NCBI GenBank assembly: GCA_016207905.1 | Contig: JACQZC010000084.1 | Span: 1-62,022 of the forward strand | Length of the DNA: 62,022 nucleotides | Direction of reading: 5' to 3' | Source of the DNA: Nitrospirota bacterium | GTDB taxonomy: Bacteria; Nitrospirota; Thermodesulfovibrionia; Thermodesulfovibrionales; JdFR-86 | Position numbers and translations under genes: made by a program | Shown: positions 198 to 51,476 of the stretch, one piece after another | Position numbering within the stretch: position 1 is the first letter of the stretch | Layout of the letters: each line of letters begins with the position of its first letter | The notes under the pieces: model-generated | The model's database searches: none | Seen by the model: only the letters and a program-made list of their open reading frames with translations | What the model was told of the DNA's origin: nothing

Positions 198-1736
198 ATG
201 CAAAAAGACAGGATTCTGGTATTGGATTTTGGCTCTCAGTATACACAGCTCATAGCAAGAAGAATCAGGGAATTAAGCGTTTATTCCGAGATAATGCCTT
301 TTAATGCACCTCTAAAGAGGATAAGGGAATTTGAACCCCTCGGCATCGTGCTTTCAGGAGGGCCCTCAAGCGTATATGACAGAGATGCTCCTATGCTCGA
401 TATGGCGGTCTTTAAGCTCGGCATCCCTATCCTTGGAATCTGCTATGGAATGCAGATTATGGCACATATGCTTAAAGGTAAGGTGGCAAAGGCTCAGAGA
501 AGGGAATACGGAAAGGCAGAGCTTATCAGTGACAAACCAACCGTGCTTTTTAATGGCATTAAAAAAACCTCCTCTGTGTGGATGAGCCATGGCGATAGGA
601 TCGAGAAACTCCCCCATGACTTCGAAAAACTTGCACATACAGAGAACTCCCCTATTGCAGTAATAGGAGACAAAAAAAGAAACCTCTATGCCCTTCAGTT
701 TCATCCTGAGGTGGTTCATACGGAAAGCGGAAAACAGATATTGAAGAACTTTGTTATGAAGGTCTGCCATGCCAAACCCACATGGACTATGCGCTCCTTC
801 GTAGAGACTGCAAAAGAAGACATAAGTTCGATGGTTGGCAAAGGCAATGTCATCTGTGGAATAAGCGGAGGAGTGGATTCCTCTGTAACTGCCGTTTTAG
901 TGCATGAGGCAATAGGAGATAACCTTACATGTATATTCGTTGACAATGGTCTCCTGAGGGAAGGAGAGGCTAAAAAAGTGGAAACTACCCTGAGAAAGAA
1001 CTTTCATATGAAGATACAGTGTGTTGATGCCGAAGAAAGATTCTTGAGAAAGCTTAAGGGAATCACTGACCCCGAAAGAAAAAGAAAGATTATTGGCAAT
1101 GAATTCATCCGTGTCTTCGAGGAAGAGGCAAGAAAGCTCAAGGGTGTTTCATTTCTTGCACAGGGAACCCTTTATCCTGATGTCATAGAGTCTGTCTCAT
1201 TCAAAGGACCCTCTGCTACCATTAAGAGCCATCATAATGTAGGAGGGCTTCTTAAAAGAATGAGGCTTAAATTAATAGAGCCCCTGAGGGAGCTTTTTAA
1301 AGACGAGGTAAGGGTTTTGGGCAAGGAGCTTGGTATGCCTGATGAGATACTGAAGAGGCATCCCTTCCCGGGTCCAGGGCTTGCTATAAGGATCATAGGA
1401 GATGTTACAAAACCGAGGCTTGATATTCTTAGGAAGGCAGACTCTATAGTTCTTGAGGAGATTAAAAGGGCAGGGCTTTATCAAGAATTGTGGCAGGCAT
1501 TTGCAGTTCTCCTTCCTGTAAAGAGCGTTGGTGTGATGGGTGATGAAAGGACTTATGAGAATGTCATAGCTCTCAGGGCAGTTAATTCTGTTGATGGAAT
1601 GACTGCTGACTGGGCAAAACTTCCTTACGATATTTTGGGGAAGATCTCAAATAGGATTATAAACGAAGTAAGGGGGATAAACAGGGTTGTCTTTGACATA
1701 TCCTCAAAGCCCCCAAGCACGATTGAGTGGGAGTGA
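198..1736 (+). CDS. guaA: GMP synthase (glutamine-hydrolysing)
   Basis: 512 aa. N-terminal GATase (GICYGMQ, HPE) and ATP-PPase SGGVDSS motif. C-terminus ends PPSTIEWE as in GuaA. Confidence 0.97.
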
Positions 1737-2932
1737 AGGTAGTGACAAAAAAGAGTAGAAAGAATCCTAAAACTATTAAAGGTCTAAGAATAAAGTCTAT
1801 TACGGGGATAGCTGAAGACGCCGAGGCTTATGGAAAGAACCATGATAAATGGCTTTACTCAAAGAAGTCTTCAGCTACTGATGCTATAGAAGCAAAGGAT
1901 TACAGAGATAGGAGTTATCTTTCTGCTATTGAAGCTGCCACTTATTTACATACATCCGTTAGCGGTATTCATAACTTAGTTCGTAAAGGCATCATTAAGG
2001 CAAAGATTGCTGTAAGCGGACAGATGCGATTTGACCTAAAAGACTTAAAAAAACTCACTTTGACATTAATAGTCCCTTCAAAAAGAAAACCCATAGTTGA
2101 TAAGTTTTCAGAATTAAATATTAATGAAACGGTTCAAAGAATATTTATAAAGAATTCTATGAAAATGGAGGCTCTAAAGTCCGAGTCAATTCATCTAATG
2201 ATAACTTCGCCTCCTTATTTTAATACCAAGATGTATTCTAAAGAGCATATTGATGGAGACTTAAGTGATATTCATGATATAGAAGAGTGGTTTGAGAAGA
2301 TCGGCGCGGTTTGGAGCGAGGTTTTCAGGGTTTTGCAACCGGGTAGAAAAGCCTTTATAAATATAATGAATTTACCGATAAGAGAAAGACATGGTTTTAG
2401 GACATTAAATCTGGCTGGAAGAACCATAGACCTGTGCGAAAAAATAGGCTTTATTTTTAAGCGTGATATTATATGGCATAAAACCAATGCTGTGAGGGCA
2501 CATTTTGGAACATATCCTTATCCAGGAGGGATTTTAATCAACAATATGCATGAATTCATATTGGAGTTTAATAAGCCTGAAAAGAAAGGATTTAGTAAAT
2601 ATGGACATCTTACTAAAGAGCAGAAAGAGCAGTCCAAACTTGACAAGGGATTCTGGATAGAAATCAAAAAGAGTGATGTATGGGTTATGAAACCACAAGG
2701 AAGCGGAGACAGGAGAAATCATATCGCACCATTTCCTTATGAGCTTCCATTTAGACTGGTAAAGGCATTTAGCTATATTGGAGAAACGGTTTTTGACCCT
2801 TTTATGGGTTCCGGGACGACTCTGATAGCTGCAGCTGATTTAAAAAGGAATGGTGTAGGGTATGAGATTAACCCTGAGATTGCTTCTGAGGCAGTAAGGA
2901 ATCTAAGAAACTATCAAACAAGGTTGATATAA
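1727..2932 (+). CDS. DNA methyltransferase, beta-class N4-C/N6-A type, with N-terminal excisionase/MerR-like HTH
   Basis: Motif IV ITSPPY precedes motif [10 protein letters not shown] (IV then I order indicates beta class). An HTH-like segment ([21 protein letters not shown]) lies upstream. GTG start overlaps the guaA stop by 10 nt; exact start uncertain. Confidence 0.85.
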
Positions 2933-4060
2933 ATGAAATTGGATGCGAAGACGATATACGCCCAATCCAGCGATATAAAATCCCGCACCTATTTAGAATA
3001 TCGCAGAGACATGAAGAAAAAGGCAATTGCCGAATTAGAGGTGCTTGAATGGTTAGAAGGTAAAATTAAAGGATTATATCCTAAAAAGAAGGTGCTGGTT
3101 TATAAGTCAGGTGGTGATAGGTTTTTATGGTTTTTAAGGAAGGGTGGTGTTTCAAGAGAGCCTGACTTTATTGCAGAGGTAAATGGCAGCAAGATAGAAT
3201 TTGAGTTTCAGTATGCTGAAAAAGCAGATTTAGAATTTTATGATTTCAAGATATCTAAGGTTGCTAAAAAGAAGGGTGGTAAACAAGAGCCTATAGAGAA
3301 TAAATTCTTTGCTTATATTCATAAGCCACTACAAAAATACGCAATATTTAAACCTGAATGGATTGTCAAGAACGGTGAGTATGGAATGGTTGAGGCATGG
3401 AGAACTTATGCATTTAGGATTTCAAAAGACAGGTTTGAAAGAGTGCTTAAGCCAGACTTTACTTTAGAAAAGCTCTGCCAACTGATAGATGCTAAAAATT
3501 TTATTCTTAACTTTCAGCATAAATTAGTCGACATACATAAAGAGAAACTTTCGCATCTTCTTCAGGGCGTAGTGGATGAAAATAAAGTCATTAAAATTAT
3601 ACCTAAGGACTTAGATAGCTTCTTCAAGGTTTGCTTTATCTTAGATAATCTAAGTAAGATTCCTCAGAATGCCAATCTCTGGCTTATTTATCTTTTAAGT
3701 TACATTAGCGACAATATCTCGCTGGAGGATGTATCTAAAATCACTTACTGTATTGACTTTCTTTATTCTAAGATTGAGTTGAAACAAAACGAACTCACCC
3801 GATTAGTTGATAGTACTAAGGGATTACTTGCTAAAGTTAAAATGTATTACAATGGAGATGGCTCCTATAGGTCATCATTAAGCGAAAGCCCTTTAAATGA
3901 GACGAGGTATGCGTTATTCTCAATAAATCTTCTTGAGGATTTAATTCAGGATATAATCTTTTATTACCCTGCCACCGAGTTAAAGCCGATAAAGAAGATA
4001 TATGAGAATGTAGAGGATGTTGGAAAGACAGTTAGGTTGCTTAAAGGTATAATCCAATGA
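2933..4060 (+). CDS. Hypothetical protein, candidate cognate restriction endonuclease or other partner of the methyltransferase
   Basis: 375 aa. Starts on the nucleotide after the MTase stop and overlaps the ispA start by 4 nt. Possible PD-(D/E)xK-like segment EPDFIAEV...IEFEFQYAEK. No family recognised. Confidence 0.4.
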   Translation: MKLDAKTIYAQSSDIKSRTYLEYRRDMKKKAIAELEVLEWLEGKIKGLYPKKKVLVYKSGGDRFLWFLRKGGVSREPDFIAEVNGSKIEFEFQYAEKADLEFYDFKISKVAKKKGGKQEPIENKFFAYIHKPLQKYAIFKPEWIVKNGEYGMVEAWRTYAFRISKDRFERVLKPDFTLEKLCQLIDAKNFILNFQHKLVDIHKEKLSHLLQGVVDENKVIKIIPKDLDSFFKVCFILDNLSKIPQNANLWLIYLLSYISDNISLEDVSKITYCIDFLYSKIELKQNELTRLVDSTKGLLAKVKMYYNGDGSYRSSLSESPLNETRYALFSINLLEDLIQDIIFYYPATELKPIKKIYENVEDVGKTVRLLKGIIQ

Positions 4061-12213: not shown

Positions 12214-12392
12214 TGAATAAGTTCAGATACATATGAGACCCTCCCCTAACCCCTCCCGTCAAGGGAGGGGTAAAGCAAATCGCATTTTTCCTTACAGGAC
12301 AGGTCTTTACTCCTTTTAATTACCCTCTCCCCTTGCGGGAGAGGGCGAGGGTGAGGGGGATATAACTGTCTCATATGTGTTGAACCCATACA
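12214..12392 (+). repeat. MITE-like repeat element, copy B
   Basis: Ends tgaataagttcagatacatatgagac ... gtctcatatgtgttgaacccataca form imperfect roughly 26-nt terminal inverted repeats. Internal palindromes cccctcccgtcaagggagggg and ccctctccccttgcgggagaggg. Confidence 0.8.
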
Positions 12393-22741: not shown

Positions 22742-22827
22742 GATTATCTCTAACCTAAGAAGCCTCTCAGTTCCGTAGAGGGGTAAGGTTTTTTTAATCC
22801 TATCGGCAGATTTAGGTTTCCCTGATT

Positions 22828-22909
22828 ATCTGAACTTATTCAGGTCATGGATTTTTGTTAATTTGGGGTTTCACCCCAAACCCTAGCCCTCTCCCGCAAG
22901 GGGAGAGGG
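22828..22909. repeat. Composite REP-like repeat (solo MITE end plus two short palindromes)
   Basis: atctgaacttattca matches the MITE terminus. atttggggtttcaccccaaaccc recurs inverted at 44131-44153. ccctctcccgcaaggggagaggg matches the MITE internal palindrome. Confidence 0.7.
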
Positions 22910-23260
22910 AAATGAAAACCATAGTTCATTTTTTACTCGACAAATAGATTTCAATAGTTTATTATCTAACTATAGTTTATAGGGAAGGATAAATATGAAA
23001 AAGGATTACACATACCCCTCTTAATAGAAAGAGTAAAGCAAAAGTAAAGGAAAAGTAAACAAGTAAACATGGGAATCTTTAAAAGTCAATGGGTTATGAA
23101 GACACCCCCCCTCCCCAGTAAACTAAACTTAGGAAGGGAAAAGTAGAATGAACGCTTGAACACTCAAAAAGATGATAAAACTATTGAATTAAAAGAGAAA
23201 ATCCCTGAAAACAGAGCTAAAGAATGAACATATAAAAAAAGGAGAGCGATACAAGACCTT

Positions 23261-40984: not shown

Positions 40985-41346
40985 TTCGTCATTCCTGTGA
41001 AAACAAGAATCCAGCCCTTGTTACCTTTCCCTCTCTCCTTGCTCTGCCATTATACTGTTACCCATGTCCATAGGTTAATGTGTTACCTATGTTAGCAGGT
41101 TGCAACTCCGTTTCCCCTCCCCCTTGAGGGGGGAGGGCGAGGGTGGGGGTGATTGGACTTTTCTGTTCACCCTCTCCAAACCCCTCCCCTCAAGGGAGGG
41201 GATTTTTTTAGATACTCTGCAGATTGCTTGTGGGGATTACTAATTTTCCCCTCGACAGAAAAAAAGTAGTTTTAAGAAACAGTTTCGCTCCTGAGGAGCC
41301 TTTGTCATTCTGCACTTCTTGTCATTCTCCGGCTTGACCGGAGAAT
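40985..41346. repeat. Cluster of short palindromic REP-like repeats in a ~1-kb noncoding gap
   Basis: cccctcccccttgaggggggaggg (41114-41137), cccctcccctcaagggagggg (41181-41201), hairpin attctccgg-N5-ccggagaat (41324-41346), and duplicated ttgtcattct. Confidence 0.65.
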
Positions 41347-41612: not shown

Positions 41613-43028
41613 GTGACCAAACAAATGTTGACTGCGACATCTATAAAACTTAATGACATTGACAAGCTTAACAGGGAAGCCGAACTACAATGGGCGACCA
41701 GAATTCAGATTGATAGCTCACTCACGCGCGCACTTGTGAGTTTTCAGGCTAATAAAGGCAAAGCGGTTTATCGTTGGTTCAAATACAAGGAAGCATTTTT
41801 TGCTGACCTCATTGAGCATTTGTTAAGGAGACATCGAATTACAAGTGGCATTGTGCTCGACCCATTTGCAGGCAGTGGGACGGCATTATTTGTAGCGGGT
41901 GGGCTTGGAATGAGTGCCGAAGGCGTTGAGTTACTTCCGATAGGCCGTACTATCATCAAGACGAGGCAGATCATTGAAGATGGGTTGGAAGATAAGGTTA
42001 TCGAGCGGTTAGTCTCTTGGCGCGACACATGTCTTTGGCGTCAAATCACGATGGAGAAGCCTATTATTGAACTTCGTATTACTCGCGGTGCATATCCGGC
42101 AGAGACGCTTGGGGCGATAGGGCGTTTCCTCAAGGCGGCGGAACAAGAGGAAGAAAGAATAAAGGCTATCCTGCTATTTGCTTTGCTATGCGTTCTTGAG
42201 AATGTCAGCTACACACGAAAAGACGGGCAATATCTCCGATGGGACTACCGCGCCGGGCGACGCCAAGGAAAGAAGTTTTTCGACAAAGGCGAGATTTTGA
42301 GTTTCGACAGGGCCATAACATCTAAACTACATGAAATCGTTACCGATTTGCGTTCTGCTGAACTGCCTGAAGATTTATTTGCTACAACTCGCTCTAAGGC
42401 AGATGTCCGTCTTTACGGTGGCTCTTGCTTGGAAATCTTGCCTCATCTCTCAACCGAATCCTATGATTGCCTGATTACCTCACCGCCCTATTGTAATCGC
42501 TACGATTACACACGCACTTACGCTCTGGAACTCGCGCTACTTGGCGTTGATGAGGGAGAACTGCTCAAACTCAGGCAAGAAATGTTAAGTTGCACTGTTG
42601 AAAACCGAGCCAAAGACCTTCTGGTACTGAATCCAAAATGGAAACAAGCCATTCTTGCTGCTGACCAACAAACGCTACTGCAAAACATCCTCGAATACTT
42701 AGATTCGCAAAAGAATCTCGGCCTGCTCAACAATAATGGAATCCCTCGGATGGTGCGCGGCTACTTTTATGAGATGGCTTGCGTTATTTTTGAGTCAGCG
42801 AGAGTACTGAAGAGAGGAGCGCCACTCATCATGGTCAACGACAACGTGCGATACGCTGGAGCTAGTATAGCCGTAGACATCATTCTTTCGGAAATTGCCG
42901 AGCAGTTGGGTTTTAGGACAGAGCAGATTCTGGCACTTCCGAACGGCAAAGGAAACAGCAGCCAGCAAATGGGCGCGCATGGACGCGAAGCACTGCGCAA
43001 ATGCGTATATGTCTGGCGAAAGGAATAA
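41613..43028 (+). CDS. DNA methyltransferase (motif I then motif IV order; N6-A or N4-C)
   Basis: 471 aa. LDPFAGSGTALF (motif I) near the N-terminus and ITSPPYCNRYDY (motif IV) about 200 aa later. Visibly GC-richer than the flanks. GTG 41613 or ATG 41625 start. Confidence 0.85.
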   Translation: MTKQMLTATSIKLNDIDKLNREAELQWATRIQIDSSLTRALVSFQANKGKAVYRWFKYKEAFFADLIEHLLRRHRITSGIVLDPFAGSGTALFVAGGLGMSAEGVELLPIGRTIIKTRQIIEDGLEDKVIERLVSWRDTCLWRQITMEKPIIELRITRGAYPAETLGAIGRFLKAAEQEEERIKAILLFALLCVLENVSYTRKDGQYLRWDYRAGRRQGKKFFDKGEILSFDRAITSKLHEIVTDLRSAELPEDLFATTRSKADVRLYGGSCLEILPHLSTESYDCLITSPPYCNRYDYTRTYALELALLGVDEGELLKLRQEMLSCTVENRAKDLLVLNPKWKQAILAADQQTLLQNILEYLDSQKNLGLLNNNGIPRMVRGYFYEMACVIFESARVLKRGAPLIMVNDNVRYAGASIAVDIILSEIAEQLGFRTEQILALPNGKGNSSQQMGAHGREALRKCVYVWRKE

Positions 43029-43031
43029 CGA

Positions 43032-43985
43032 ATGGCGAAGCCATATTTACAACACTTAAAATCCAGTAAGAGTCTTGAGACCAGCTATGAGGCAGTGCGA
43101 GCAGGTTTCGTTGCCCTTGCACTTGAAAAAAATCGACGTGCAACGCCGTTTGTCGCTCAGGCACGTGCTTTGAAGGCTGCCGCGAGCAAAGCCAAATCGG
43201 CCGATGATCTTCTAAAGATTCAAGAGATTCAACCTGCATTGCTGACGGCAGCTGGAGTATCGGACAAAGCGATAAACCATCTGCAAGATTCTGATAAGCA
43301 TGAAGCCGTCGGTGGCCTTATCAAGAACTTTCTTGAACCAGCAGGCACTAATTTTGTCGAGGAACTTGTCTTTCGCTTCCTTCTAACTCGCGGCGACACC
43401 CTCGGCGATTCTATGCGAAATATCGGTGGCTTTATAGCGCAAAAGAAGATTACACGGGCTATTATTGCTTACTTAAAACTTACTGAACATAAATGTCAAT
43501 GGCTTCCCAATAAAACCACCTCATGGACTGAGTTGCCGAAGGATGATGCCGATATTGAGTTGTCGTTAAGGGGTCTTAGCTGGAATACTGGCAATGGGCC
43601 GCGTACACTCTTTTATAATGTAACTGTTCCGCTTTTCAAAAACAATGTTGATTTGGTTCTCTTCAACTGTTCCGCCCAAGACCTGACGCGTGAAATCATC
43701 AAAACGCCTTCCGCTTACATCGCACTTGGAGAACTCAAAGGAGGCATTGACCCGGCAGGAGCGGATGAACATTGGAAAACGGCTCGCACTGCGCTCAACC
43801 GAATTCACGAGGCATTTTCAAAGAAGAAACTCAAACCGCATACCTTTTTCATCGGAGCGGCCATTGAAACCAAGATGGCCGCGGAGATTTGGGAAATGCT
43901 CACCCAATCTATTTTGGAGAACGCCGCGAACCTTACCGACGAAGATCAGATTGCTTCTATTTCACAATGGCTATGTTCTATCTGA
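43032..43985 (+). CDS. Candidate type II restriction endonuclease (partner of the 41613 MTase)
   Basis: 317 aa. Starts 3 nt after the MTase stop. Possible nuclease core ...VDLVLF...ALGELKGG (D...ExK-like). No family recognised. Confidence 0.45.
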
Positions 43986-44243: not shown

Positions 44244-44852
44244 GTGCTAACAAACAAAACTTCTATGAAAAGAAAAGACACAAGACAGAGACTCATCGAT
44301 GCAGGGCTTAAGCTTTTCTCGGAAAGGGGCTACCTCGGTGCCGTAACAAAGGACATTGCCAAAGAGGCAGGCATAGCAGAGGTTACGCTTTTCAGATATT
44401 TCCCTTCGAAGGAGAGCCTTCTCGAAGAGGTCATAAAGACATATTCTTTTCTTCCTGCCCTTAAAGGTCTTCTCAGAGAAATAGATGCCCTTCCATATAA
44501 GGATGCACTTACAAAGATTGCAGAAAGGTTTCTTAGCACCCTATCGGAAAGAAAAGAGCTCATCAGGATAATGCACTCCGAGATTCCAAAGTATCCATCT
44601 AAGACAAGGCAGATATACCATGGCTTGATTAATGAAACCTTCACTACCCTTGCCTCTTATTTCAGCGAGCAAGAGAAAAAGGGCGTCCTGAGACGGTTCG
44701 AGCCAAGATACGGAGCAAGGGCATTCCTCGGAATGTTCTTTTCCCTTTTTACCTCACAGGAGTTAATGCTGAGGAAAAAATTAAGCAAGCAGGAATCCAA
44801 AAAGATTATAGCGGAGCTTGTAGAGATATTTGCAAAGGGGACATTGAAATGA
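44244..44852 (+). CDS. TetR/AcrR-family transcriptional regulator
   Basis: N-terminal HTH RQRLIDAGLKLFSERGYLGAVTKDIAKEAGIAEVTLFRYF. The start may be ATG 44265. Confidence 0.9.
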   Translation: MLTNKTSMKRKDTRQRLIDAGLKLFSERGYLGAVTKDIAKEAGIAEVTLFRYFPSKESLLEEVIKTYSFLPALKGLLREIDALPYKDALTKIAERFLSTLSERKELIRIMHSEIPKYPSKTRQIYHGLINETFTTLASYFSEQEKKGVLRRFEPRYGARAFLGMFFSLFTSQELMLRKKLSKQESKKIIAELVEIFAKGTLK

Positions 44853-46156
44853 AAAAGGCAATCGGGTTTTTATGTCTATTTCTCTTTATTTATCAGGGCA
44901 TCTCATCTGCTGAGGAGTATACCCTCAAGGACATTTTTTCACTTGCCCTTCAGCGCTCCGAGCAGATAAGGATTTCCGAGGAAGAATTCCGCATCTCAGA
45001 GGCAGGAAAGGATAAGGCATCTTCTTTTCTTATTCCAAAGCTCTCTTTATTCGGAGAACTCAGAAGATACAAAGAGGGGAAGGTCATACCCGGTGGTCAG
45101 ATTCTTCAGCCTGAAACATCCTCGCTATGGGGGATAAGGCTTGACCAGTCCATTTCCATAGGAGGCAATGAGTTTATATCGCTGGGGATTTCTAAGGACA
45201 ATATAGAGAAAAACCGTTATGAGATTTATCGCATCAAAGAGGAATATCTTTATGGTGTTGCGGTGCAATACTACAATGTGCTTAGTGCCGAAAGGGCATT
45301 GGAGATTGGCCAGTCAAATGTTGCCCGTCTAAAGAGTCACAGGGATGCTGCGGCTTTAAGACTCAAGGTGGGTGAGGTAACAAAGACAGTGCTACTAAGG
45401 GCAGAGGCAGAGCTCGAGGGCGCTTATTCGGACCTTGTGCGCATGCAAAACAACCTCGCCATTGCAAAGGTTACCTTAATCAGACTTGTGGGGGTAAATG
45501 AGGATTTTACCCTCAAGGAATCCGAGGATGAACTGGCAGAGACCCTGTCAATAGAGGCATTAAAAGAAATAGCATATGCCGAAAGGCCTGAGCTCAGAGG
45601 CATTATGATTCAGAATGAGATTGCCAAAAAGCAGGTCAGATATTCGAGAGGCTTTTTCTTACCCACCGTGTCGGTGGAGGCAGTCTTTACTCAAAGGGAC
45701 GATGAACCTGAATCGGATTTGTTTATGGAGGAGAGTTTCTATGGAGGCATAAAGCTGAGTTTCCCATTTTTTGAGGGAGGACTAAGAAAGGCAGAGCTCA
45801 GGGAATCTCTGTCCAGACTGAGACAGGCAGAGCTTGCCATTTCAGACATTAAAAAGACTATCGAGGTCGAGGTTCAGAGTGCTTATTTAGATGTTATTGC
45901 AAATCAGGCAGTTATCGAAAAGCTCGATGCCCAACTGAATTATGCAAAGGAAAATTATGGGGCAGTCTCAAAACAATTTGACTACGGCTTGGCAACGAGC
46001 CTCGATGTAATGGATGCCAATAATCTTCTTACTACCACTGAAAAACAGCTATCCGATGAGAAGGCAACCTATAGGTTATCCCTGCTCAGGCTTAAAAAGG
46101 CAACTGGAACACTCGTTAAATCGGTGCTTGGAGAAAATAAAGGAGGAATTCAGTGA
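44849..46156 (+). CDS. TolC-family outer-membrane efflux protein
   Basis: 435 aa. Signal peptide and duplicated coiled-coil/beta-barrel repeat pattern. Confidence 0.85.
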   Translation: MKKAIGFLCLFLFIYQGISSAEEYTLKDIFSLALQRSEQIRISEEEFRISEAGKDKASSFLIPKLSLFGELRRYKEGKVIPGGQILQPETSSLWGIRLDQSISIGGNEFISLGISKDNIEKNRYEIYRIKEEYLYGVAVQYYNVLSAERALEIGQSNVARLKSHRDAAALRLKVGEVTKTVLLRAEAELEGAYSDLVRMQNNLAIAKVTLIRLVGVNEDFTLKESEDELAETLSIEALKEIAYAERPELRGIMIQNEIAKKQVRYSRGFFLPTVSVEAVFTQRDDEPESDLFMEESFYGGIKLSFPFFEGGLRKAELRESLSRLRQAELAISDIKKTIEVEVQSAYLDVIANQAVIEKLDAQLNYAKENYGAVSKQFDYGLATSLDVMDANNLLTTTEKQLSDEKATYRLSLLRLKKATGTLVKSVLGENKGGIQ

Positions 46157-46646
46157 GTCCAACCGTTCAAAGGGGCATCTCGGTTTTGGTATCTATATTT
46201 GTGCTTTTGTTCGTAGGGGGCTGTAAGGAAAAAGAGGCACGAAAGCCCAAGGAAAAGGTTATTAGGGTAGAGGTTCGGGAAGTATCTAAAAAGGCACTGA
46301 AGCCATATATCGAGGCAGTCGGGACATTGGATGCCTACGATGAGGTGATTGTTAGTGCAGAGGCCGAGGGCATACTCAAATCCGTTAAAGTGAAGGAGGG
46401 CTCGCATGTCAGAAATGGCCAGCTCATTGCAGGTATTCAGGATGTGGAGTTTGACCTTGAGGTAAAACGGGGAGAGGCAAGCCTCAAGCAGGCTCAAGCA
46501 AGCCTACTTAATATCCAGCTTGAATACGAAAGAAAATCTGCCCTTATCAAAGACGAGCTTATTACGAAACAGCAGTTTGACGATGTCTCCACGCGCCTTG
46601 CCCTGGCACAGGCATAGGTTGACAGTGCAAAAGCCACGCTTCAGCT
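46153..46646 (+). pseudogene. Efflux adaptor (MFP) N-terminal remnant with in-frame TAG
   Basis: Lipobox FVGGC and the MFP lipoyl/hairpin start. TAG at 46615-46617 interrupts ...RLALAQA*VDSAKATLQL. Homology ends near 46646. Confidence 0.75.
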
Positions 46647-46978
46647 TCATCGGATTAATCCTTCTCATGGGACTTGTCAAGAAAAACGCAATACTCATCG
46701 TAGACTACACAAACACATTAAGGAGTCGTGGTATCAGCCGAAGAGAGGCAATACTTCAGGCAGGCCCTGTAAGGCTAAGGCCTATCCTTATGACCACATT
46801 TGCAATAGTATTCGGAATGCTTCCCATTGCACTTGGAGTTGGAGAGGGTGCTGAGACACGGGCTCCGATGGCAGTGGCAACCATAGGCGGGCTTCTTACC
46901 TCTTTATTTCTTACATTAGTTGTGGTGCCGGTTGCTTATGATTTATTAGATGAAATAAAGGAGCGAAATTCTTTATAA
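46640..46978 (+). pseudogene. RND permease (AcrB-like) C-terminal remnant
   Basis: FSFIGLILLMGLVKKNAILIVDY...RLRPILMTTFAIVFGMLPIAL...VVVPVAY is only the last TM helices (about 112 aa) of a roughly 1000-aa pump. It is in a different frame from the MFP remnant. Confidence 0.8.
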
Positions 46979-46992
46979 TATTAAACTCTTCT

Positions 46993-47079
46993 GGAGGGGT
47001 GGCCGAGTGGTTGAAGGCGACGGTCTTGAAAATCGTTGTAGGGGCAACTCTACCGTGAGTTCGAATCTCACCCCCTCCG
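46993..47079 (+). tRNA. tRNA-Ser (anticodon UGA)
   Basis: Acceptor ggagggg/cccctcc, anticodon loop ctTGAaa, long variable arm, T-arm gtgag-ttcgaat-ctcac, discriminator G. Confidence 0.9.
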
Positions 47080-47095
47080 TTTTAATTAAGAATAA

Positions 47096-47416
47096 GTGAT
47101 AAATATTAACGATATAATAGAGTCTATCAGAAATGGTAAAATTAGAATAACAGACCATGCTGATGAAGAAGCACAGGCTGACAATCTTTCTTTTAAGGAG
47201 ATACTAAGCTCGGTGCAGATAGGTGAAATAATAGAGCAATATCCAAAAGATAAACCATATCCAAGCTGTTTGATTTTAGGAAGGAATCTTAGAAACGAGC
47301 CAATTCATAGTGTATGGGCTTATAATTCGGAAACCGAGGCAAGCGTTTTAATAACAGTATATCGTCCAGACCCACTGAGGTGGATGGAAGACTTCAAGAC
47401 AAGGAGGAAACAATGA
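47096..47416 (+). CDS. DUF4258-family putative toxin
   Basis: 106 aa. ITDHADEE...GEIIEQYPKDKPYPSCLILG...PIHSVWAY...ITVYRPDP pattern. Confidence 0.7.
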   Translation: MININDIIESIRNGKIRITDHADEEAQADNLSFKEILSSVQIGEIIEQYPKDKPYPSCLILGRNLRNEPIHSVWAYNSETEASVLITVYRPDPLRWMEDFKTRRKQ

Positions 47417-47661
47417 GACTTTTTAAAAAGTGCCCTCTCTGTGAAGGCGAGCTTGTAGATAAAGAGGTTGAAAAACTCCTTAAAGGTAATGGAAATACTG
47501 CTATTGTCAGAGTAAAAGCAGAAGCATGTATCCATTGTGGAGAAAGGCTATATTCTCCTGAAGTGGTGGAAAAGTTTGAGGTCATAAGAAAGAAACTCAA
47601 AGAAGGAAAAACAGAAGATTTCATTACAATTGGCAAAAGCTATCAGGTTGTTACAGATTAA
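47413..47661 (+). CDS. YgiT/MqsA-type zinc-finger protein (putative antitoxin)
   Basis: CPLCEG...CIHCGE zinc ribbon. ATGA overlap with the DUF4258 gene. Start trimmed to Met12 of the track ORF. Confidence 0.7.
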   Translation: MRLFKKCPLCEGELVDKEVEKLLKGNGNTAIVRVKAEACIHCGERLYSPEVVEKFEVIRKKLKEGKTEDFITIGKSYQVVTD

Positions 47662-47665
47662 ACTG

Positions 47666-47871
47666 TGAATAAGTTCAGATACATATGAGACAAAATGCGT
47701 CAATTAAATCACCCTCCCCTAACCCCTCCCATCAAGGGAGGGGTCGATAAAGCAAATCGCATTTTTTCCTTACAGGACAGGTCTTTACTCCTTTTAATTA
47801 CCCTCTCCCCTTGTGGGAGAGGGTCAGGGTGAGGGGGATATAACTTGTCTCATATGTGTTGAACCCATACA
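47666..47871 (+). repeat. MITE-like repeat element, copy C (full length, ~206 bp)
   Basis: Same termini and internal palindromes as copies A and B. Carries a roughly 25-nt segment (aaaatgcgtcaattaaatca) shared with copy A but absent from copy B. Confidence 0.8.
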
Positions 47872-48034
47872 AACTGTTGGCAAAAGATTCAAAATAGTGT
47901 AAGTTATTATTGGTAATCAACTATGGGGAATATAGAGCGTTTCCTGACTAATATACAAATTCCGATATTATCGGGACGGTTTCCGTCTAATAACTGGTTA
48001 TACGCATAAATGAGAATAATATAGAGGCATCAAA

Positions 48035-48769
48035 TTGACAAAAGTAGAACAAGACCAACTTGCTAATAGATCTAATGATGAACAGGAAATAGCTGTTCAT
48101 CTGAAAGAATACGAAATGCTTGCGGCATCAATAAGAACGGACATAGCACGTATAGACAAAATAATTGGAATTTATGCCATCGCTGTTTTTGGTATTATCG
48201 GTTTCTTTTTGAAAACTGCAAATTTCAATGAATTCATAAAGAACATTGATGAACAGACTGAATTGATCGGATTAGTTCTTGCTATTCCTATAATAAATGC
48301 GATCCTTTTAATTCATGCTGTTTCTTCTTTTCAAGTCATACTTGTTAAGGCTCGTTGTGCAACTTATGTAATTGGCGAGCGGTTATGCAGTCTTCTTCAG
48401 CGGGATGTTTTATTATTTGATAAAATTTATGATCTGGATAAGCAAGCTTGGCTCAACCAGAGAACTACCGTCGGCATATTTTACTGCCTTCTTTCTTCTG
48501 CCATTTCCCTTCTTATACTTTATCGGTATTCTTATGTATTACTGCTTTCACGGGGTATTTCCGTTTTTATACTATGGATTATAAGTTGCTTCACTGTTTC
48601 TTTATCTCTTTCTTTTCTTGCAAGACATCAATTTATCAATAAACATTTTGCAACTCTTCATAAGACACCAATTAGAGAGCCTTTTCTTTTAAAGCTTTGG
48701 ATTCTTACAAGCTTATGTTTTATTGTTCTGTTTGGCTTATTTAGATTTTTTGGCTATAGGACATGTTGA
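48035..48769 (+). CDS. Polytopic membrane protein, unknown function (cassette-borne)
   Basis: 244 aa. TTG start, charged N-terminal helix then about 5-6 TM segments. Visibly AT-rich. attC begins 25 nt after the stop. Confidence 0.55.
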   Translation: MTKVEQDQLANRSNDEQEIAVHLKEYEMLAASIRTDIARIDKIIGIYAIAVFGIIGFFLKTANFNEFIKNIDEQTELIGLVLAIPIINAILLIHAVSSFQVILVKARCATYVIGERLCSLLQRDVLLFDKIYDLDKQAWLNQRTTVGIFYCLLSSAISLLILYRYSYVLLLSRGISVFILWIISCFTVSLSLSFLARHQFINKHFATLHKTPIREPFLLKLWILTSLCFIVLFGLFRFFGYRTC

Positions 48770-48793
48770 TCTGATATAAAAATGAAAAACAAT

Positions 48794-48881
48794 GCCTAAC
48801 AAAAAAATCAACCCGACTGGTGATAAGCCTGTTTTGGTTTTCAAAGGGCAGTTCACCATCGGGTTATTTATCTCGTTAGAC
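48794..48881 (+). repeat. Integron-type attC site 1
   Basis: R'' GCCTAAC ... R' GTTAGAC. Arms aaaaaaatcaacccgaCtggtga / tcaccatcgggttatttatctc pair with one bulged base. 88 bp. Confidence 0.75.
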
Positions 48882-48906
48882 AGAGATAATTATAAAGGAG
48901 GAAATT

Positions 48907-49122
48907 ATGAAGCAAAATAAGGAAGAAGTAGATCACTATCACGTCTCTTCCAAAACTTGGGGAGGGATTAGATCTATTGATATTTATTTAGATCACAAGC
49001 TGAGAGAAGCGCGTATCATCGATAGTTATAATTCTGAGAATCGTATTACAATTTCAGCAGATGATTGGAATAAGTTAATCAGCCAAATAAAGAAAAACCA
49101 AATTGGTAAAATAGGAGCTTAG
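48907..49122 (+). CDS. Small soluble protein, unknown function (cassette-borne)
   Basis: 71 aa. RBS aaaggagg 6 nt upstream. Followed 4 nt later by the next ORF. Confidence 0.5.
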   Translation: MKQNKEEVDHYHVSSKTWGGIRSIDIYLDHKLREARIIDSYNSENRITISADDWNKLISQIKKNQIGKIGA

Positions 49123-49126
49123 AGAG

Positions 49127-49579
49127 ATGGTCAGCTTAGCCATTGCATCTGGAAGTTTTCTATTGGTCTCTATTGTGACGTTTCTTAACTTTTATCGGCA
49201 GTCACCAACCTTAAGTAAAAAGAGAGATGAGGGAATCAATCGTATACTTAAAAATCACATTATGCATAATCCGCCTTTAACAGCCTCAGGACTTTTGAAT
49301 CTGCTTACAGATGAATTAGGTTTTCCACGCCTAAAACTTGTTTTGGCTGAGGTGGAGCCAAATGGTTTCAAGAAATCCATGATTTTCTTTGGAATCGCAA
49401 CCCTTATTGCATTACTCTCAATTATTTTGCCAGAAAATATTTTGACAATTTTACCATATAAATGGATTCCCGGGGTCATATGGTCTCTTATCTTCTCAGT
49501 TGGAATATTCTTTTTTATAGACGATTCCAGATTCTATTATCATCTTTACAAGATGGAACGACTAATAGACAATAAATGA
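49127..49579 (+). CDS. Membrane protein, unknown function (cassette-borne)
   Basis: 150 aa with about 3 TM segments. attC begins 17 nt after the stop. Confidence 0.5.
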   Translation: MVSLAIASGSFLLVSIVTFLNFYRQSPTLSKKRDEGINRILKNHIMHNPPLTASGLLNLLTDELGFPRLKLVLAEVEPNGFKKSMIFFGIATLIALLSIILPENILTILPYKWIPGVIWSLIFSVGIFFFIDDSRFYYHLYKMERLIDNK

Positions 49580-49595
49580 ATAAGGATATATGATT

Positions 49596-49684
49596 GTCTA
49601 ACGAATCACTCAAGCCGACCAGGAACAACGCTGGTTTGATTTTGGCAAAGGCTTGTGGCCGGGCGGCTTAGCTCATTGTTGAAC
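49596..49684 (+). repeat. Integron-type attC site 2
   Basis: GTCTAACGAATCACTCAAGCCGACC...GGCCGGGCGGCTTAGCTCATTGTTGAAC. Closely resembles the aadA1 59-be (GTCTAACAATTCGTTCAAGCCGAC...GCGGCTTAACTCAAGCGTTAGAT, recalled from memory). Confidence 0.8.
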
Positions 49685-49763
49685 CATAGTTTTTAGACAG
49701 GCTCTGTGTCTCTATTTATTTTCGATAGCTTGTCACAACCGTTTGATGTTAAAATAAAACTGT

Positions 49764-50006
49764 ATGAGTCCTTCAATTTTTAGGGAAAGGGGATACAGAT
49801 TTTATTTTCTTTCAAATGAAGAGGATAGAATCCATATCCATGTTACATGCGAGGACGGGGAGGCTAAGTTTTGGCTGGAACCCATAATATCATTAGCTAT
49901 ATCTCATGGGTTAAATCCAAGAAAGTTGAACGAAATTCAAAAAATCGTAGAGGAGCATAAAAATGAAATCATTAAAGCATGGCGAACACATTTCAGTAAG
50001 CGTTGA
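49764..50006 (+). CDS. DUF4160-family protein (TA-like pair with DUF2442)
   Basis: 80 aa. ...RIHIHVTCEDGEAKFWLEPI... pattern. Confidence 0.7.
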   Translation: MSPSIFRERGYRFYFLSNEEDRIHIHVTCEDGEAKFWLEPIISLAISHGLNPRKLNEIQKIVEEHKNEIIKAWRTHFSKR

Positions 50007-50271
50007 AAATATAACGCCTTTTGGTATCTGGCTGTATGTAAAAGAAAAAGAATATTTTCTAAGCTATAAGGACTATCCTTATTTTAAGGACCAGACATTG
50101 AGTTCCATACAAAATGTTCAATTACTTCATGGCTATCATTTGTATTGGCCTGAATTGGATGTTGACTTGGAAATTGACAATCTTGAAAATCCAGAAAAAT
50201 ACCCCCTAAAATTTGAATCAAAGAAACATCTAACGAGTCATTCAACGGGACGGCGAGTAGCCGCCCGTTAA
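49963..50271 (+). CDS. DUF2442-family protein
   Basis: 102 aa. ...IQNVQLLHGYHLYWPELDVDLEIDNL pattern. The C-terminal tail and stop codon lie inside attC 3. Confidence 0.7.
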   Translation: MKSLKHGEHISVSVENITPFGIWLYVKEKEYFLSYKDYPYFKDQTLSSIQNVQLLHGYHLYWPELDVDLEIDNLENPEKYPLKFESKKHLTSHSTGRRVAAR

Positions 50272-50285
50272 TTCAGGCGTTGAAC
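50228..50285 (+). repeat. Integron-type attC site 3
   Basis: ATCTAAC gagtcattcaacgggAcggc gagta gccgcccgttaattcaggc GTTGAAC. 58 bp with a bulged A. Confidence 0.8.
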
Positions 50286-50607
50286 CATAGTTTTTAGACA
50301 GGCTACACTTTCCATATTCTTGAGTATGACTTCTTGAAACAAACCCTTGCCCCTGCCTTCGATAAAAAAATCTTCAATGAGCTTGTAATCAAAATTCATG
50401 ACAGGCCGCAAAGGACTAAATTATAGTTCCCTTTAACATCCCTGTAAAGGGCTTAACTGTTAAATTCCACAATAGCCGGGGCAGGCTTCTAAGACAAGAA
50501 GCAGTCCTGTTTTCGAATCTCACCCCGCCCCGAAAGAGCAGTTTTTATTCCTACAAATAAACTCTGTTGCAAAGCATCGTTCCGACAAAAACTGGTATAA
50601 TAAAGCC

Positions 50608-50817
50608 ATGATTAAAAACGCAAAGCTCCTTTCTGAATTTGAAGACAGGCTTCTAAGACAAGAAAGGCTCTCTTATAAAGAGGCATTGAAGCTCTTTGAG
50701 GCAATGTGGAAGGAGGCAGTGAGCTTTGGAGTCCTGCCTTTAAAAGACCCTATGGAAGACCTTGAGGCAGATATTGCACTTGCAAAGGTGTTAAATTCGT
50801 GTTTGAAAAACTCTTAG
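50608..50817 (+). CDS. Small helical protein, unknown function (partner of the downstream NTase-fold gene)
   Basis: 69 aa. Overlaps the next ORF by 19 nt. Confidence 0.45.
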   Translation: MIKNAKLLSEFEDRLLRQERLSYKEALKLFEAMWKEAVSFGVLPLKDPMEDLEADIALAKVLNSCLKNS

Positions 50818-51359
50818 CAAAGGTAGCTTTTTCACTCAAAAGGCACAACATTCCCTATATGGTCATTGGTGGCCAGGCAGTTCTTCTTTATGGAGCACCG
50901 CGGCTTACAAAAGACATAGACATAACTCTCGGAGTCGGCATAGACAAACTCTCTGATGTGGTCAATACAGTCAAAGACGCGGGGCTGGAAATTCTTCCGA
51001 AAGATTCTGAAGGCTTTGTGAAAAAAACCTTTGTCCTGCCCACAAGGGATAGGAAAAGCAAAATGAGAGTGGATTTCATTTTTTCCTTTACCCCGTATGA
51101 AAGGCAGGCGATTTCAAGGGTAAGGGACATAGTCATTTCTGGCACTAAGATTAAATTTGCCTCTTTAGAGGATATTATCATCCATAAAGTCTTCTCATGC
51201 CGTGCAAGGGATTTAGAGGATGTCAGGTCAATGCTCATAAAAAACCCTGACTACGATATGGCTTATATAAAGAAATGGCTTGGAGAGTTTGATAAGCTAT
51301 CAGAAGAGAAAAAGTTTACCAGCACTTTTAAGAATATACTTAAAACCCTGAAACATTGA
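50799..51359 (+). CDS. Nucleotidyltransferase-fold protein (MNT/AbiEii-like)
   Basis: 186 aa. VIGGQAVLLYGAPRLTKDIDI is a minimal-NTase G-x-...-D-x-D type motif. GTG start. Confidence 0.55.
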   Translation: MFEKLLAKVAFSLKRHNIPYMVIGGQAVLLYGAPRLTKDIDITLGVGIDKLSDVVNTVKDAGLEILPKDSEGFVKKTFVLPTRDRKSKMRVDFIFSFTPYERQAISRVRDIVISGTKIKFASLEDIIIHKVFSCRARDLEDVRSMLIKNPDYDMAYIKKWLGEFDKLSEEKKFTSTFKNILKTLKH

Positions 51360-51404
51360 GTCCGAATCTCACCCCCTCCGCCAGCATGCCTTTTTTTATA
51401 AAAA

Positions 51405-51476
51405 AGCCGGGGATGGGGGTTGAACCCACGACCTGCTGATTACGAATCAGCTGCTCTACCACTGAGCTACCCCGGC
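51405..51476 (-). tRNA. tRNA-Thr (anticodon CGU)
   Basis: Reverse complement: gccggggtagctcagtggtagagcagctgattCGTaatcagcaggtcgtgggttcaacccccatccccggct. Cloverleaf folds by hand. Confidence 0.88.

What the first reader, a model, noticed from the sequence alone, without database searches (positions are those of the whole stretch)
48794..50285. Integron-type attC sites define a small gene-cassette array with no integrase in view (CALIN-like)
Three imperfect palindromes each sit just 3' of an ORF or ORF pair, all in the same orientation. Each starts with an RYYYAAC box and ends with a GTTRRRY box: GCCTAAC...GTTAGAC (48794-48881), GTCTAAC...GTTGAAC (49596-49684) and ATCTAAC...GTTGAAC (50228-50285). 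Lengths are 88, 89 and 58 bp. The inner arms pair with single bulged bases. Site 2 is strikingly similar to the classical aadA1 59-base element (GTCTAACAATTCGTTCAAGCCGAC...), which I recall from memory. This is the architecture of integron cassettes (ORF followed by attC). No intI or attI is recognisable in the window, so the locus looks like a cluster of attC sites lacking an integrase. An ORF-based annotation would miss it entirely.
Basis: partly seen in the sequence, partly recalled or inferred. Interest (0 to 1): 0.85.

Follow-up and report, generated by a model that had tools for sequence, protein, structure and literature searches.

The report
Integrase-less integron cassette array (CALIN)
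Three genuine integron recombination sites (attC) mark off three mobile gene cassettes with no integrase in 62 kb of a Nitrospirota contig, a known kind of element (CALIN) whose cassettes are shared almost unchanged with bacteria of other phyla.

Summary
The observation and the interpretation both hold. The three sites lie exactly at 48794-48881, 49596-49684 and 50228-50285 (+). A motif-plus-stem scan finds only these three in the window, against 0.01 expected from shuffles. A covariance model built from attC sites chosen independently of the window hits exactly these coordinates (45.1, 41.7 and 31.0 bits; next best E 0.44). It gives no hit in 769 kb of control DNA.

All three sites share the aadA1 attC layout, including the extrahelical bases on the bottom strand. 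Cassettes 1 and 3 recur at 84-91% nucleotide identity in other genomes, and the identity stops at the G|TT crossover. In two Nitrospirota MAGs the same attC types sit beside decayed intI genes. The cassettes are 47998-48875, 48876-49678 and 49679-50279.

The window holds no intI or intI pseudogene, so this is a CALIN.

Two points are new. The array lies in a 4.3-kb low-GC islet bounded by tRNA-Ser and a 23/24 repeat of its 3' end. The neighbouring ~210-bp palindrome is a dispersed MITE-like repeat, not an attC site.

The origin of the array is unresolved. This is a new member of a known kind, of modest interest.

The parts
46992..47080 (+). tRNA-Ser(tga). Its last 24 nt (47056-47079) form the left copy of the direct repeat that bounds the islet.
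   Evidence: ARAGORN, Rfam tRNA 59.7 bits, repeat family D1.
47096..47661 (+). Overlapping two-gene module with a toxin-antitoxin-like layout: DUF4258 protein (47096-47416) and a YgiT/MqsA-type zinc-finger protein (47380-47661). No attC follows it.
   Evidence: Pfam DUF4258 E 1e-25. NCBIfam YgiT_finger E 3.7e-7. The covariance model finds no site here.
47666..47877 (.). MITE-like palindromic dispersed repeat of about 210 bp. It is not an attC site.
   Evidence: Copies of about 94% identity lie at window 1-154 (-) and 12214-12391, with partial copies at 41167-41201 and 22827-22918. A short flanking duplication is present (AACTG). The covariance model gives only 9.3 bits, E 5.3.
47997..48003 (+). 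Left junction of the array, GTTATAC. Cassette 1 begins after the G. The sequence upstream is neither an attC nor a recognisable attI.
   Evidence: Nucleotide homology to L053, L054 and L055 (about 91%) starts exactly at 47997. That position aligns with the G of GTTATGC, the R' of the upstream attC in L053 (4549-4607).
47998..48875 (+). Cassette 1 (878 bp). It carries a 244-aa predicted membrane protein (ORF 48035-48769) with no family match.
   Evidence: Only 21 homologues exist in 5.8 billion proteins, one at 90% identity named as from a Bacteroidota MAG. The homologues in L053 and L054/L055 are each followed by an attC, and L053 also has one upstream.
48794..48881 (+). attC site 1 (88 nt). 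R'' is GCCTAAC and R' is GTTAGAC. The L box is AAT-C-AACCCGA / TCGGGTT-ATT.
   Evidence: Covariance model R1: 41.7 bits, E 5.9e-8, full length; the minus strand scores only 13.7 bits. The bottom-strand hairpin has z -4.3.
48876..49678 (+). Cassette 2 (803 bp). It carries a 71-aa ORF (48907-49122) and a 150-aa predicted membrane protein (49127-49579).
   Evidence: The first six bases, TTAGAC, are the exact complement of the cassette's own R'' (GTCTAA), as expected for a unit that was once circular. The 150-aa protein has only 2 homologues (57% and 62% identity), and the 71-aa plus roughly 150-aa gene pair is conserved in L140-L142.
49596..49684 (+). attC site 2 (89 nt). R'' is GTCTAAC and R' is GTTGAAC. 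The arms resemble those of the aadA1 attC.
   Evidence: R1: 31.0 bits, E 2.4e-5. With its own R' restored, the bottom strand folds into a complete R/L hairpin with bulges. Related sites occur in L019, L033, L035, L039 and L041.
49679..50279 (+). Cassette 3 (601 bp). It carries a DUF4160 (DhiT-like toxin, 49764-50006) and DUF2442 (49963-50271) toxin-antitoxin pair.
   Evidence: Pfam E 7e-18 and 1.4e-14. NCBIfam toxin_DhiT is a weak match (E 6e-5, 23.6 bits against a cut-off of 100). dhiTA is an experimentally shown TA system (PMC8198452). The cassette is 84-91% identical at nucleotide level in L012, L015, L020, L023, L024, L027 and L032, and the identity ends at 50276-50282.
50228..50285 (+). 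attC site 3 (58 nt). R'' is ATCTAAC and R' is GTTGAAC. It has the same topology as the aadA1 attC.
   Evidence: R1: 45.1 bits, E 8.9e-9. With its R' set to the complement of its own R'' (as found at the cassette start in L027), the bottom-strand fold has an 8-bp R stem, an internal loop, then 3 bp, a bulged G, 6 bp, a bulged T and 4 bp, matching the aadA1 fold.
50279..50304 (+). Second copy of a 26-nt exact repeat (GTTGAACCATAGTTTTTAGACAGGCT). The first copy lies at 49678-49703, at the start of cassette 3.
   Evidence: Repeat family D3. It is probably the stump of a tandem second copy of cassette 3; this is inference.
50427..50461 (+). Possible vestige of a fourth attC (CTTTAAC...GGGCTTAACTGTTAAAT). 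Unresolved.
   Evidence: Read by eye. R1 gives only 8.9 bits, E 6.5, at 50451-50465.
50508..50531 (+). Degenerate inner copy (19/24) of the tRNA-Ser 3' end.
   Evidence: Repeat family D1.
50608..51359 (+). Two-gene module: a 69-aa ORF and a DUF6036/AbiEii-like nucleotidyltransferase (50799-51359).
   Evidence: Pfam DUF6036 E 4e-10 and AbiEii E 1.4e-5. PADLOC AbiEii E 2e-4.
51357..51380 (+). Right-hand direct repeat (23/24) of the tRNA-Ser 3' end. It marks the distal border of the 4.3-kb islet.
   Evidence: The islet has GC 0.371 against 0.438 for the rest of the window.
51405..51476 (-). tRNA-Thr(cgt), just beyond the islet.

Best explanation
The three palindromes are genuine integron attC sites. 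Together with a left junction at 47997 (G|TTATAC), they delimit three gene cassettes: a 244-aa membrane protein, a 71-aa plus 150-aa pair, and a DhiT/DUF2442 toxin-antitoxin pair. No integron integrase or attI lies nearby, so the locus is a CALIN.

Mechanism, from established integron biology (inferred here, not shown). When the bottom strand of an attC becomes single-stranded it folds into a hairpin. The R box, the unpaired spacer, the L box and the extrahelical G and T bases are then recognised by IntI. IntI cuts between the A and C of the bottom-strand AAC, which is G|TT on the top strand. Recombination between two neighbouring attC sites releases a circular cassette, which can re-enter at an attI site, another attC or a secondary genomic site. 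In this locus the cassettes are stranded unless an IntI is supplied in trans, from elsewhere in the genome or from an incoming element. The TA cassette would tend to hold the array in place.

Shown here: site anatomy, model scores, boundaries at G|TT, cross-phylum sharing of cassettes 1 and 3, and absence of intI in 62 kb.

Inferred: recombination competence, and the way the array arose. I lean towards IntI-mediated insertion at a non-att site, or arrival as cargo of the tRNA-Ser islet. I think in-place loss of an adjacent intI is less likely, because no intI remnant is left.
For: Motif-plus-stem scan: 3 observed against 0.01 expected. Independent covariance model R1 was built from 7 class-1 cassette attCs and 11 chromosomal attCs that did not match my search pattern. 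With filters off it gives exactly three full-length hits on the + strand at 45.1, 41.7 and 31.0 bits; the next best hit has E 0.44. R1 gives 0 hits at E<=1 in 769 kb of unrelated metagenome DNA. The bottom-strand folds have the same topology and the same bulged G and T as aadA1. Cassette 3 is 84-91% identical in 7 MAG loci labelled Nitrospirae/Nitrospirota, Thermodesulfovibrionales, Deltaproteobacteria, Armatimonadetes and Ca. Brocadia, and the identity ends at the GTT of R'. Homology of cassette 1 starts exactly at the G of an upstream attC R' in L053, and its homologues are followed by attCs in arrays with different neighbours. Cassette 2 begins with TTAGAC, the complement of its own R''. 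In L023 and L033 the same attC types lie next to intI fragments whose best NCBIfam match is TIGR02249, integron integrase. In 30 sites aligned to the model, the L box is 95% paired and 7 of its 9 pairs covary. The outer R-box positions are often unpaired, as expected when R' is a hybrid with the next cassette. No Phage_integrase domain occurs in 40 ORFs, and tblastn with IntI1 and with Nitrospirota IntI fragments gives no hit better than E 0.79.
Against: The model used was mine, not the IntegronFinder attC model, and its calibration is rough. Site 2 scores lowest, and its natural MFE fold does not close the R box, because its R' is a hybrid. The starts of cassette 1 (TTATAC) and cassette 3 (TTGAAC) do not complement their own R'' boxes. 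Homologues of cassette 2 in L140 and L143 have no convincing attC next to them. No recombination was observed, and the rest of the genome could not be searched for intI.
Confidence: 0.9

Rival explanations
1. The array is the remnant of a once complete chromosomal integron at this spot, whose intI and attI were deleted or overwritten.
For: Nitrospirota relatives carry small integrons with decaying intI next to the same attC types (L023, L033). Cury et al. 2016 list loss of intI as one route to CALINs. A MITE-like repeat sits just upstream of the array.
Against: No intI fragment is detectable anywhere in the 62 kb (best tblastn E 0.79). The genes upstream of the array are on the same strand and run up to a tRNA, leaving no room for a divergent intI. 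Cury et al. found that 95% of CALINs lack a nearby intI pseudogene.
Confidence: 0.25
2. The cassettes were inserted one after another at a secondary genomic site (attG, GWT) by an IntI encoded elsewhere in the genome or on a transient element.
For: The left junction, G|TTATAC at 47997, is preceded by sequence that is neither attC nor intI-linked. IntI-mediated insertion into GWT sites is experimentally documented and has been proposed as a source of small CALINs and SALINs (bioRxiv 10.1101/2022.09.11.507474). Cassette 2 carries an intact complement between its start and its own R''.
Against: No intI is known for this organism. attC x attC insertion downstream of the first cassette is less favoured than insertion at attI. 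The 26-nt duplication around cassette 3 is not what a simple insertion predicts.
Confidence: 0.35
3. The whole 4.3-kb segment (47081-51380) arrived as a tRNA-Ser-targeting genomic islet that already carried the cassettes. Its own tyrosine integrase was later lost or acts in trans.
For: A 23/24 direct repeat of the tRNA-Ser 3' end lies at the distal border, with a 19/24 inner copy. The islet has GC 0.371 against 0.438 for the rest of the window. TA-like modules sit at both ends.
Against: There is no integrase in the islet. No empty-site comparison was possible: the nearest czcD relatives are at most 64% identical and none of the 80 loci has a tRNA, and the contig of the 86%-PurA relative ends too early. 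The repeat could date from an older event unrelated to the cassettes.
Confidence: 0.25
4. The palindromes are generic REP or terminator elements and resemble attC by chance.
For: The window does contain a dispersed palindromic repeat right next to the array. Site 2 contains a terminator-like hairpin.
Against: The three sites occur nowhere else in the window. They match an independent attC model at E 2e-5 to 9e-9. They have asymmetric bulges that make one strand score 28 bits higher than the other. They mark the break-points of homology between genomes.
Confidence: 0.02

Closest known systems
attC (59-base element) of the aadA1 cassette and other class 1 integron cassettes
   Same: The order R''-spacer-L''...L'-spacer-R' is the same. 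The spacers are 5 nt on the left and 5-6 nt on the right. The L box is 3 bp, a bulged G, then 6 bp, followed by a second bulge. Site 2 matches 20 of the first 24 nt of aadA1, and site 3 has an identical bottom-strand topology.
   Different: The central parts are unrelated. Sites 1 and 2 are 88-89 nt against 60 nt for aadA1. The second extrahelical base of site 1 is G, not T. There are no resistance genes, no class 1 5'-CS or 3'-CS, and no intI1.
[quoted passage not shown] 2016, PMC4889954; IntegronFinder 2.0, PMC9024848)
   Same: There are at least 2 attC sites less than 4 kb apart on one strand, and no intI or intI pseudogene nearby. The array is small and its cassettes are of unknown function. 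CALINs have already been reported in Nitrospira (two in Ca. Nitrospira inopinata).
   Different: The host is a Thermodesulfovibrionales-like Nitrospirota lineage known only from metagenomes. The array is embedded in an islet bounded by a repeat of a tRNA 3' end.
Small chromosomal integrons with decaying intI in Nitrospirota MAGs (JBFLWF010000006 = L023; JACQXD010000109 = L033)
   Same: They carry the same attC types. In L023 the same DUF4160/DUF2442 cassette is present at about 88% nucleotide identity.
   Different: Those loci keep intI fragments divergent from the array and lie elsewhere in the genome (L023 between prfA and prmC). The window has no intI trace.
SALIN/attG route: IntI-mediated cassette insertion outside att sites (bioRxiv 10.1101/2022.09.11.507474)
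   Same: The first cassette abuts non-att DNA at a G|TT junction.
   Different: There are three cassettes rather than one, and no experimental link. The attG consensus (GWT) is too short to test.
dhiTA toxin-antitoxin system of Dickeya dadantii (PMC8198452)
   Same: Cassette 3 encodes DUF4160 followed by an overlapping DUF2442 gene, toxin first, as in dhiTA.
   Different: The relationship is distant: NCBIfam DhiT scores 23.6 bits against a cut-off of 100. Here the pair is an integron cassette whose antitoxin gene runs into the attC.

Membership tests
attC site (integron cassette recombination site) | Inverse core R'' RYYYAAC at the 5' end and core R' GTTRRRY at the 3' end | tested here: met
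   GCCTAAC/GTTAGAC, GTCTAAC/GTTGAAC and ATCTAAC/GTTGAAC.
attC site (integron cassette recombination site) | L''/L' imperfect inverted repeat, set off from the R box by an unpaired spacer, with extrahelical bases on the bottom strand | tested here: met
   The spacers are 5 nt on the left and 5-6 nt on the right. A bulged bottom-strand G lies in the L box of all three sites. The second bulge is T in sites 2 and 3 and G in site 1. The folds have the same topology as aadA1.
attC site (integron cassette recombination site) | Significant score with an attC covariance model, on one strand only | tested here: met
   My own model R1, built from independent attCs, gives 45.1, 41.7 and 31.0 bits. The opposite strand scores at most 13.7 bits. 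The model gives 0 hits in 769 kb of control DNA. The IntegronFinder model itself was not available.
attC site (integron cassette recombination site) | Lies at the 3' end of an ORF or ORF pair in the same orientation, so that cassette borders fall at G|TT | tested here: met
   Homology with other genomes starts at 47997 and ends at 50276-50282, at GTT in both cases.
attC site (integron cassette recombination site) | Recombined by an integron integrase as a folded bottom strand | not testable with these tools
   This needs an in vivo or in vitro recombination assay.
CALIN | [quoted passage not shown] | tested here: met
   Three sites lie within 1.5 kb, all on the + strand.
CALIN | No integron integrase within 4 kb and no intI pseudogene within 10 kb | tested here: met
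   No Phage_integrase domain occurs in 40 ORFs. tblastn with IntI1 and with Nitrospirota IntI fragments over all 62 kb gives a best E of 0.79.
Complete integron | intI, attI and Pc adjacent to the first cassette | tested here: not met
   None is present in the window. Whether an intI lies elsewhere in the genome could not be tested, because only short Logan contigs of this organism are on record.
tRNA-targeted genomic island | Direct repeat of the tRNA 3' end at the distal border, and deviant base composition | tested here: met
   23/24 repeat at 51357-51380. GC 0.371 against 0.438.
tRNA-targeted genomic island | A tyrosine integrase gene of its own | tested here: not met
   No integrase lies between 47081 and 51380.
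tRNA-targeted genomic island | Absent from the same site in related genomes | tested here: inconclusive
   No close relative covers the site.
   The three sites have no other copy in the window. The criterion is met only by the separate ~210-bp palindrome at 47666-47877.

The most novel reading that the evidence does not exclude
The cassette array may be cargo of a small, integrase-less islet that targets the 3' end of tRNA-Ser and is moved by a tyrosine integrase supplied in trans. Integron cassettes would then have a second vehicle between genomes that does not depend on IntI. That could help explain why CALINs so often lack any intI remnant, and how near-identical cassettes reach different phyla.
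Probability: 0.15. Interest if true: 0.55.

Novelty: new member of a known kind. Interest (0 to 1): 0.35.

Why it matters
The locus shows that a raw-sequence reader can recognise attC sites that gene-based annotation misses. It adds a well-delimited CALIN from an uncultured Thermodesulfovibrionales-like Nitrospirota lineage. Two of its cassettes are 84-91% identical at nucleotide level to copies in MAGs labelled Deltaproteobacteria, Armatimonadetes, Ca. Brocadia and Bacteroidota. This is direct evidence of recent cassette traffic between phyla in environmental communities. The position of the array inside a tRNA-bounded islet without any integrase bears on the open question of how CALINs arise. 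None of this changes the known picture of integron biology.

Tried and rejected
- Rfam has no attC family. It returned only the two tRNAs and chance hits.
- My strict-motif scan recovered only one class 1 attC type (aacA4) from the first four real class 1 integron loci, so it is specific but insensitive. I therefore built a covariance model.
- The ~210-bp palindrome ending in GTTGAAC (47666-47877) was considered as a long attC. I rejected this: it is a dispersed MITE-like repeat and scores 9.3 bits.
- The 120 nt between that repeat and cassette 1 were examined as a degenerate attC or attI. There is no model hit and no pairing, so this stays unresolved.
- Exact-protein look-ups to find the source genome gave only short Logan contigs from SRR12113399, SRR12113402 and SRR12113406.
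- The empty-site comparison failed. The metagenome scan with the czcD-like protein gave relatives of at most 64% identity, with no tRNA in any of the 80 loci. The contig of the 86%-PurA relative ends before the locus.
- Homologues of cassette 2 (L140-L143) showed no convincing attC beside the gene pair.
- PADLOC found no defence-system match except a weak AbiEii hit.
- The viral-contig scan gave one unrelated high-GC attC array and two chance hits.
- A literature search for CALINs in tRNA islands found nothing specific.
Full report
**Observation.** Each follows an ORF or ORF pair of the same orientation. These are a 244-aa ORF, a 71-aa plus 150-aa pair, and a DUF4160 plus DUF2442 pair whose second gene runs 44 nt into site 3.

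I scanned both strands for RYYYAAC...GTTRRRY, 50-160 nt apart, with an inner stem of at least 9 bp and at most two bulges. The scan finds exactly these three in 62 kb, against a mean of 0.01 in 100 dinucleotide shuffles. Relaxing the boxes to AAC...GTT changes nothing.

**Anatomy.** All three sites share one layout:
- R'' of 7 nt, then a 5-nt spacer.
- L'' made of 3 nt, one extra base, 6-7 nt, then one more extra base.
- A variable centre, then L', a 5-6-nt spacer, and R'.

The extra bases lie in the 5' half of the top strand. On the bottom strand they are therefore a bulged G inside the L box, plus a second bulge that is T in sites 2 and 3 and G in site 1.

I read the aadA1 attC from a public plasmid record (JF274991). 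Site 3 was folded as bottom-strand DNA with its R' set to the complement of its own R''. It then has the same dot-bracket topology as aadA1: R stem, internal loop, 3 bp, bulge, 6 bp, bulge, short stem-loop. Site 2, with the R' it would have as a circle, also closes both boxes. In the array, the R boxes of sites 2 and 3 are only partly complementary. This is expected, because the last six bases of R' belong to the next cassette.

**Covariance-model test.** Rfam has no attC family, so I built a model. I fetched class 1 integrons from plasmids using IntI1 as query and took seven cassette attCs: aadA1, dfrA14, aacA4, arr-3, blaVIM-2, aac(6')-29a and dfrA27. I added eleven chromosomal attCs from arrays in other genomes that did not match the pattern I had derived from the window.
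- On this alignment the R box and L box are 89% paired with clear covariation.
- The next hit is the minus strand of site 1 at 13.7 bits (E 0.44). Everything else has E > 5.
- In 769 kb of unrelated metagenomic DNA the model gives no hit at E <= 1.

The calibration is rough and this is not IntegronFinder's own model. Even so, the separation between signal and background is large.

**Comparative evidence.** I scanned one genome per species for TCTAACGANTCANTCAANNNGAC. This gave 35 loci, rich in Nitrospirota/Thermodesulfovibrionales and Xanthomonadales.

*Cassette 3.*
- Site 3, together with the end of the DUF2442 gene, recurs almost unchanged in MAGs labelled Deltaproteobacteria, Nitrospirae, Armatimonadetes and Ca. 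Brocadia.
- The whole cassette is 84-91% identical at nucleotide level in seven loci, and the identity stops at window 50276-50282, the GTT of R'.
- In L027 the cassette starts with TTAGAT, the complement of its own R''.

*Cassette 1.*
- Its 244-aa gene has only 21 homologues among 5.8 billion proteins, one at 90% identity from a Bacteroidota MAG.
- In L053 and L054/L055 the gene is about 91% identical at DNA level.
- It is followed by an attC, and in L053 also preceded by one. Its neighbours differ from those in the window.
- The homology begins exactly at window 47997, which aligns with the G of the upstream attC's R' in L053.

The cassettes are therefore 47998-48875, 48876-49678 and 49679-50279.

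*Cassette 2.* It begins with TTAGAC, the exact complement of its own R'' (GTCTAA). Its 150-aa protein has two homologues only. Their contexts have no convincing adjacent attC, so mobility of this cassette rests on its own anatomy.

*Family-wide structure.* In 30 sites aligned to the model, the L box is 95% paired and seven of its nine pairs covary. The outer R-box positions are often unpaired, which is the mark of hybrid R' boxes in arrays. These counts lean towards the structure, because the alignment was fitted to the model.

**Integrase.**
- Pfam scans of 40 ORFs across the window show no tyrosine recombinase.
- tblastn with IntI1, whose sequence I verified as 100% identical to plasmid records, gives nothing better than E 0.79. 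The same holds for IntI fragments from Nitrospirota loci.
- By contrast, L023 has the same DUF4160/DUF2442 cassette directly beside a broken intI.
- L033 has a site-2-type attC array beside a 210-aa internally deleted intI.
- The best NCBIfam match of these fragments is TIGR02249, integron integrase.

The window thus meets the published definition of a CALIN (PMC4889954 and PMC9024848).

**Surroundings.**
- *Host.* It is a Thermodesulfovibrionales-like Nitrospirota lineage. PurA is 75% identical to a Thermodesulfovibrionales MAG and about 70% identical to many Nitrospirota MAGs. The organism is on record only as short Logan contigs.
- *Islet.* The array lies between tRNA-Ser(tga) (46992-47080) and tRNA-Thr(cgt) (51405-51476, minus strand). 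The last 24 nt of tRNA-Ser recur at 51357-51380 (23/24) and, degraded, at 50508-50531 (19/24). The enclosed 4.3 kb has GC 0.371 against 0.438 elsewhere. This is the signature of a tRNA-targeted islet, but no integrase is present in it.
- *Other genes in the islet.* It also holds a DUF4258 plus YgiT-zinc-finger pair and a 69-aa plus DUF6036/AbiEii-like nucleotidyltransferase pair.
- *Neighbouring palindrome.* The ~210-bp palindrome at 47666-47877 ends in GTTGAAC and could be mistaken for an attC. It is a dispersed MITE-like repeat, with copies at 1-154 and 12214-12391 and a short flanking duplication.

**Open points.**
- The 26 nt that start cassette 3 (49678-49703) are repeated exactly after site 3 (50279-50304). 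The simplest integron-style reading is a tandem second copy of cassette 3 that was later truncated. This is inference.
- A 35-nt stretch at 50427-50461 looks like the stump of another attC, but it scores only 8.9 bits.
- The starts of cassettes 1 and 3 do not complement their own R'' boxes.
- How the array arose cannot be settled. I weigh insertion at a non-att site by an IntI acting in trans at about 0.35; that route is documented experimentally (bioRxiv 10.1101/2022.09.11.507474). Import with the tRNA islet is about 0.25, and in-place loss of intI about 0.25.
- An empty-site comparison failed for lack of close relatives.

**Verdict.** The finding is correct. It is a new member of a known kind, a CALIN. 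The useful extras are the cross-phylum cassette sharing and the tRNA-bounded islet. Interest is modest.

Noticed in passing
window 47666-47877; also 1-154 (-), 12214-12391, 41167-41201, 22827-22918: A palindromic, MITE-like dispersed repeat of about 210 bp. It has terminal inverted repeats (TGAATAAGTTCAGATACATATGAGAC...) and internal CCCTCTCCCC/GGGAGAGGG-type hairpins. Copies are about 94% identical and show a short flanking duplication.
   Followed up: partly
window 47056-47079, 50508-50531, 51357-51380: The 3' end of tRNA-Ser is repeated twice downstream, at 19/24 and 23/24. The repeats bound a 4.3-kb low-GC islet that has no integrase.
   Followed up: partly
window 46153-46978: The RND efflux operon (TetR 44244-44852, outer-membrane factor 44849-46156) is broken. 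A 154-aa N-terminal fragment of the membrane-fusion protein overlaps a 152-aa C-terminal fragment of AcrB, which implies an internal deletion of several kb just upstream of tRNA-Ser.
   Followed up: no
window 49678-49703 and 50279-50304: An exact 26-nt repeat begins at the GTT of attC sites 2 and 3. It may be the stump of a duplicated cassette.
   Followed up: partly
window 50482-50500 and 50646-50664: An exact 19-nt repeat (CAGGCTTCTAAGACAAGAA). One copy lies inside the 69-aa ORF. The other sits next to the degenerate tRNA-like repeat, which suggests a truncated older copy of that module.
   Followed up: no
window 1727-4060 and 41613-43985: Two likely restriction-modification pairs. One is an N6/N4 methylase plus a 375-aa ORF with no family match. 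The other is a methylase plus a BsoBI-type endonuclease (Pfam E 8.5e-149).
   Followed up: no
L059 4330-5166; L140 7629-8319: More distant homologues of the cassette 1 and cassette 2 genes sit without an adjacent attC among defence-type genes. In L059 these are an MmeI-like enzyme, an OLD-family/UvrD pair and a TIR protein. In L140 they are AAA_15 plus PycTM and a methylase. The unknown cassette proteins may therefore be defence-related.
   Followed up: no
L054 1-223: The homologue of cassette 1 is preceded by non-attC sequence ending in GTTATGC. This could be an attI site at the edge of a short contig.
   Followed up: no
L147 398-7837: An IMG/VR 'viral' contig (GC about 0.65) carries eight attC hits with the model. 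It is a cassette array on a putative viral or misclassified contig.
   Followed up: no
L060-L139: None of the 80 metagenome loci around czcD homologues (769 kb) contains a tRNA gene, either with ARAGORN or by BLAST with the window's tRNAs. About ten would be expected from average tRNA density.
   Followed up: partly
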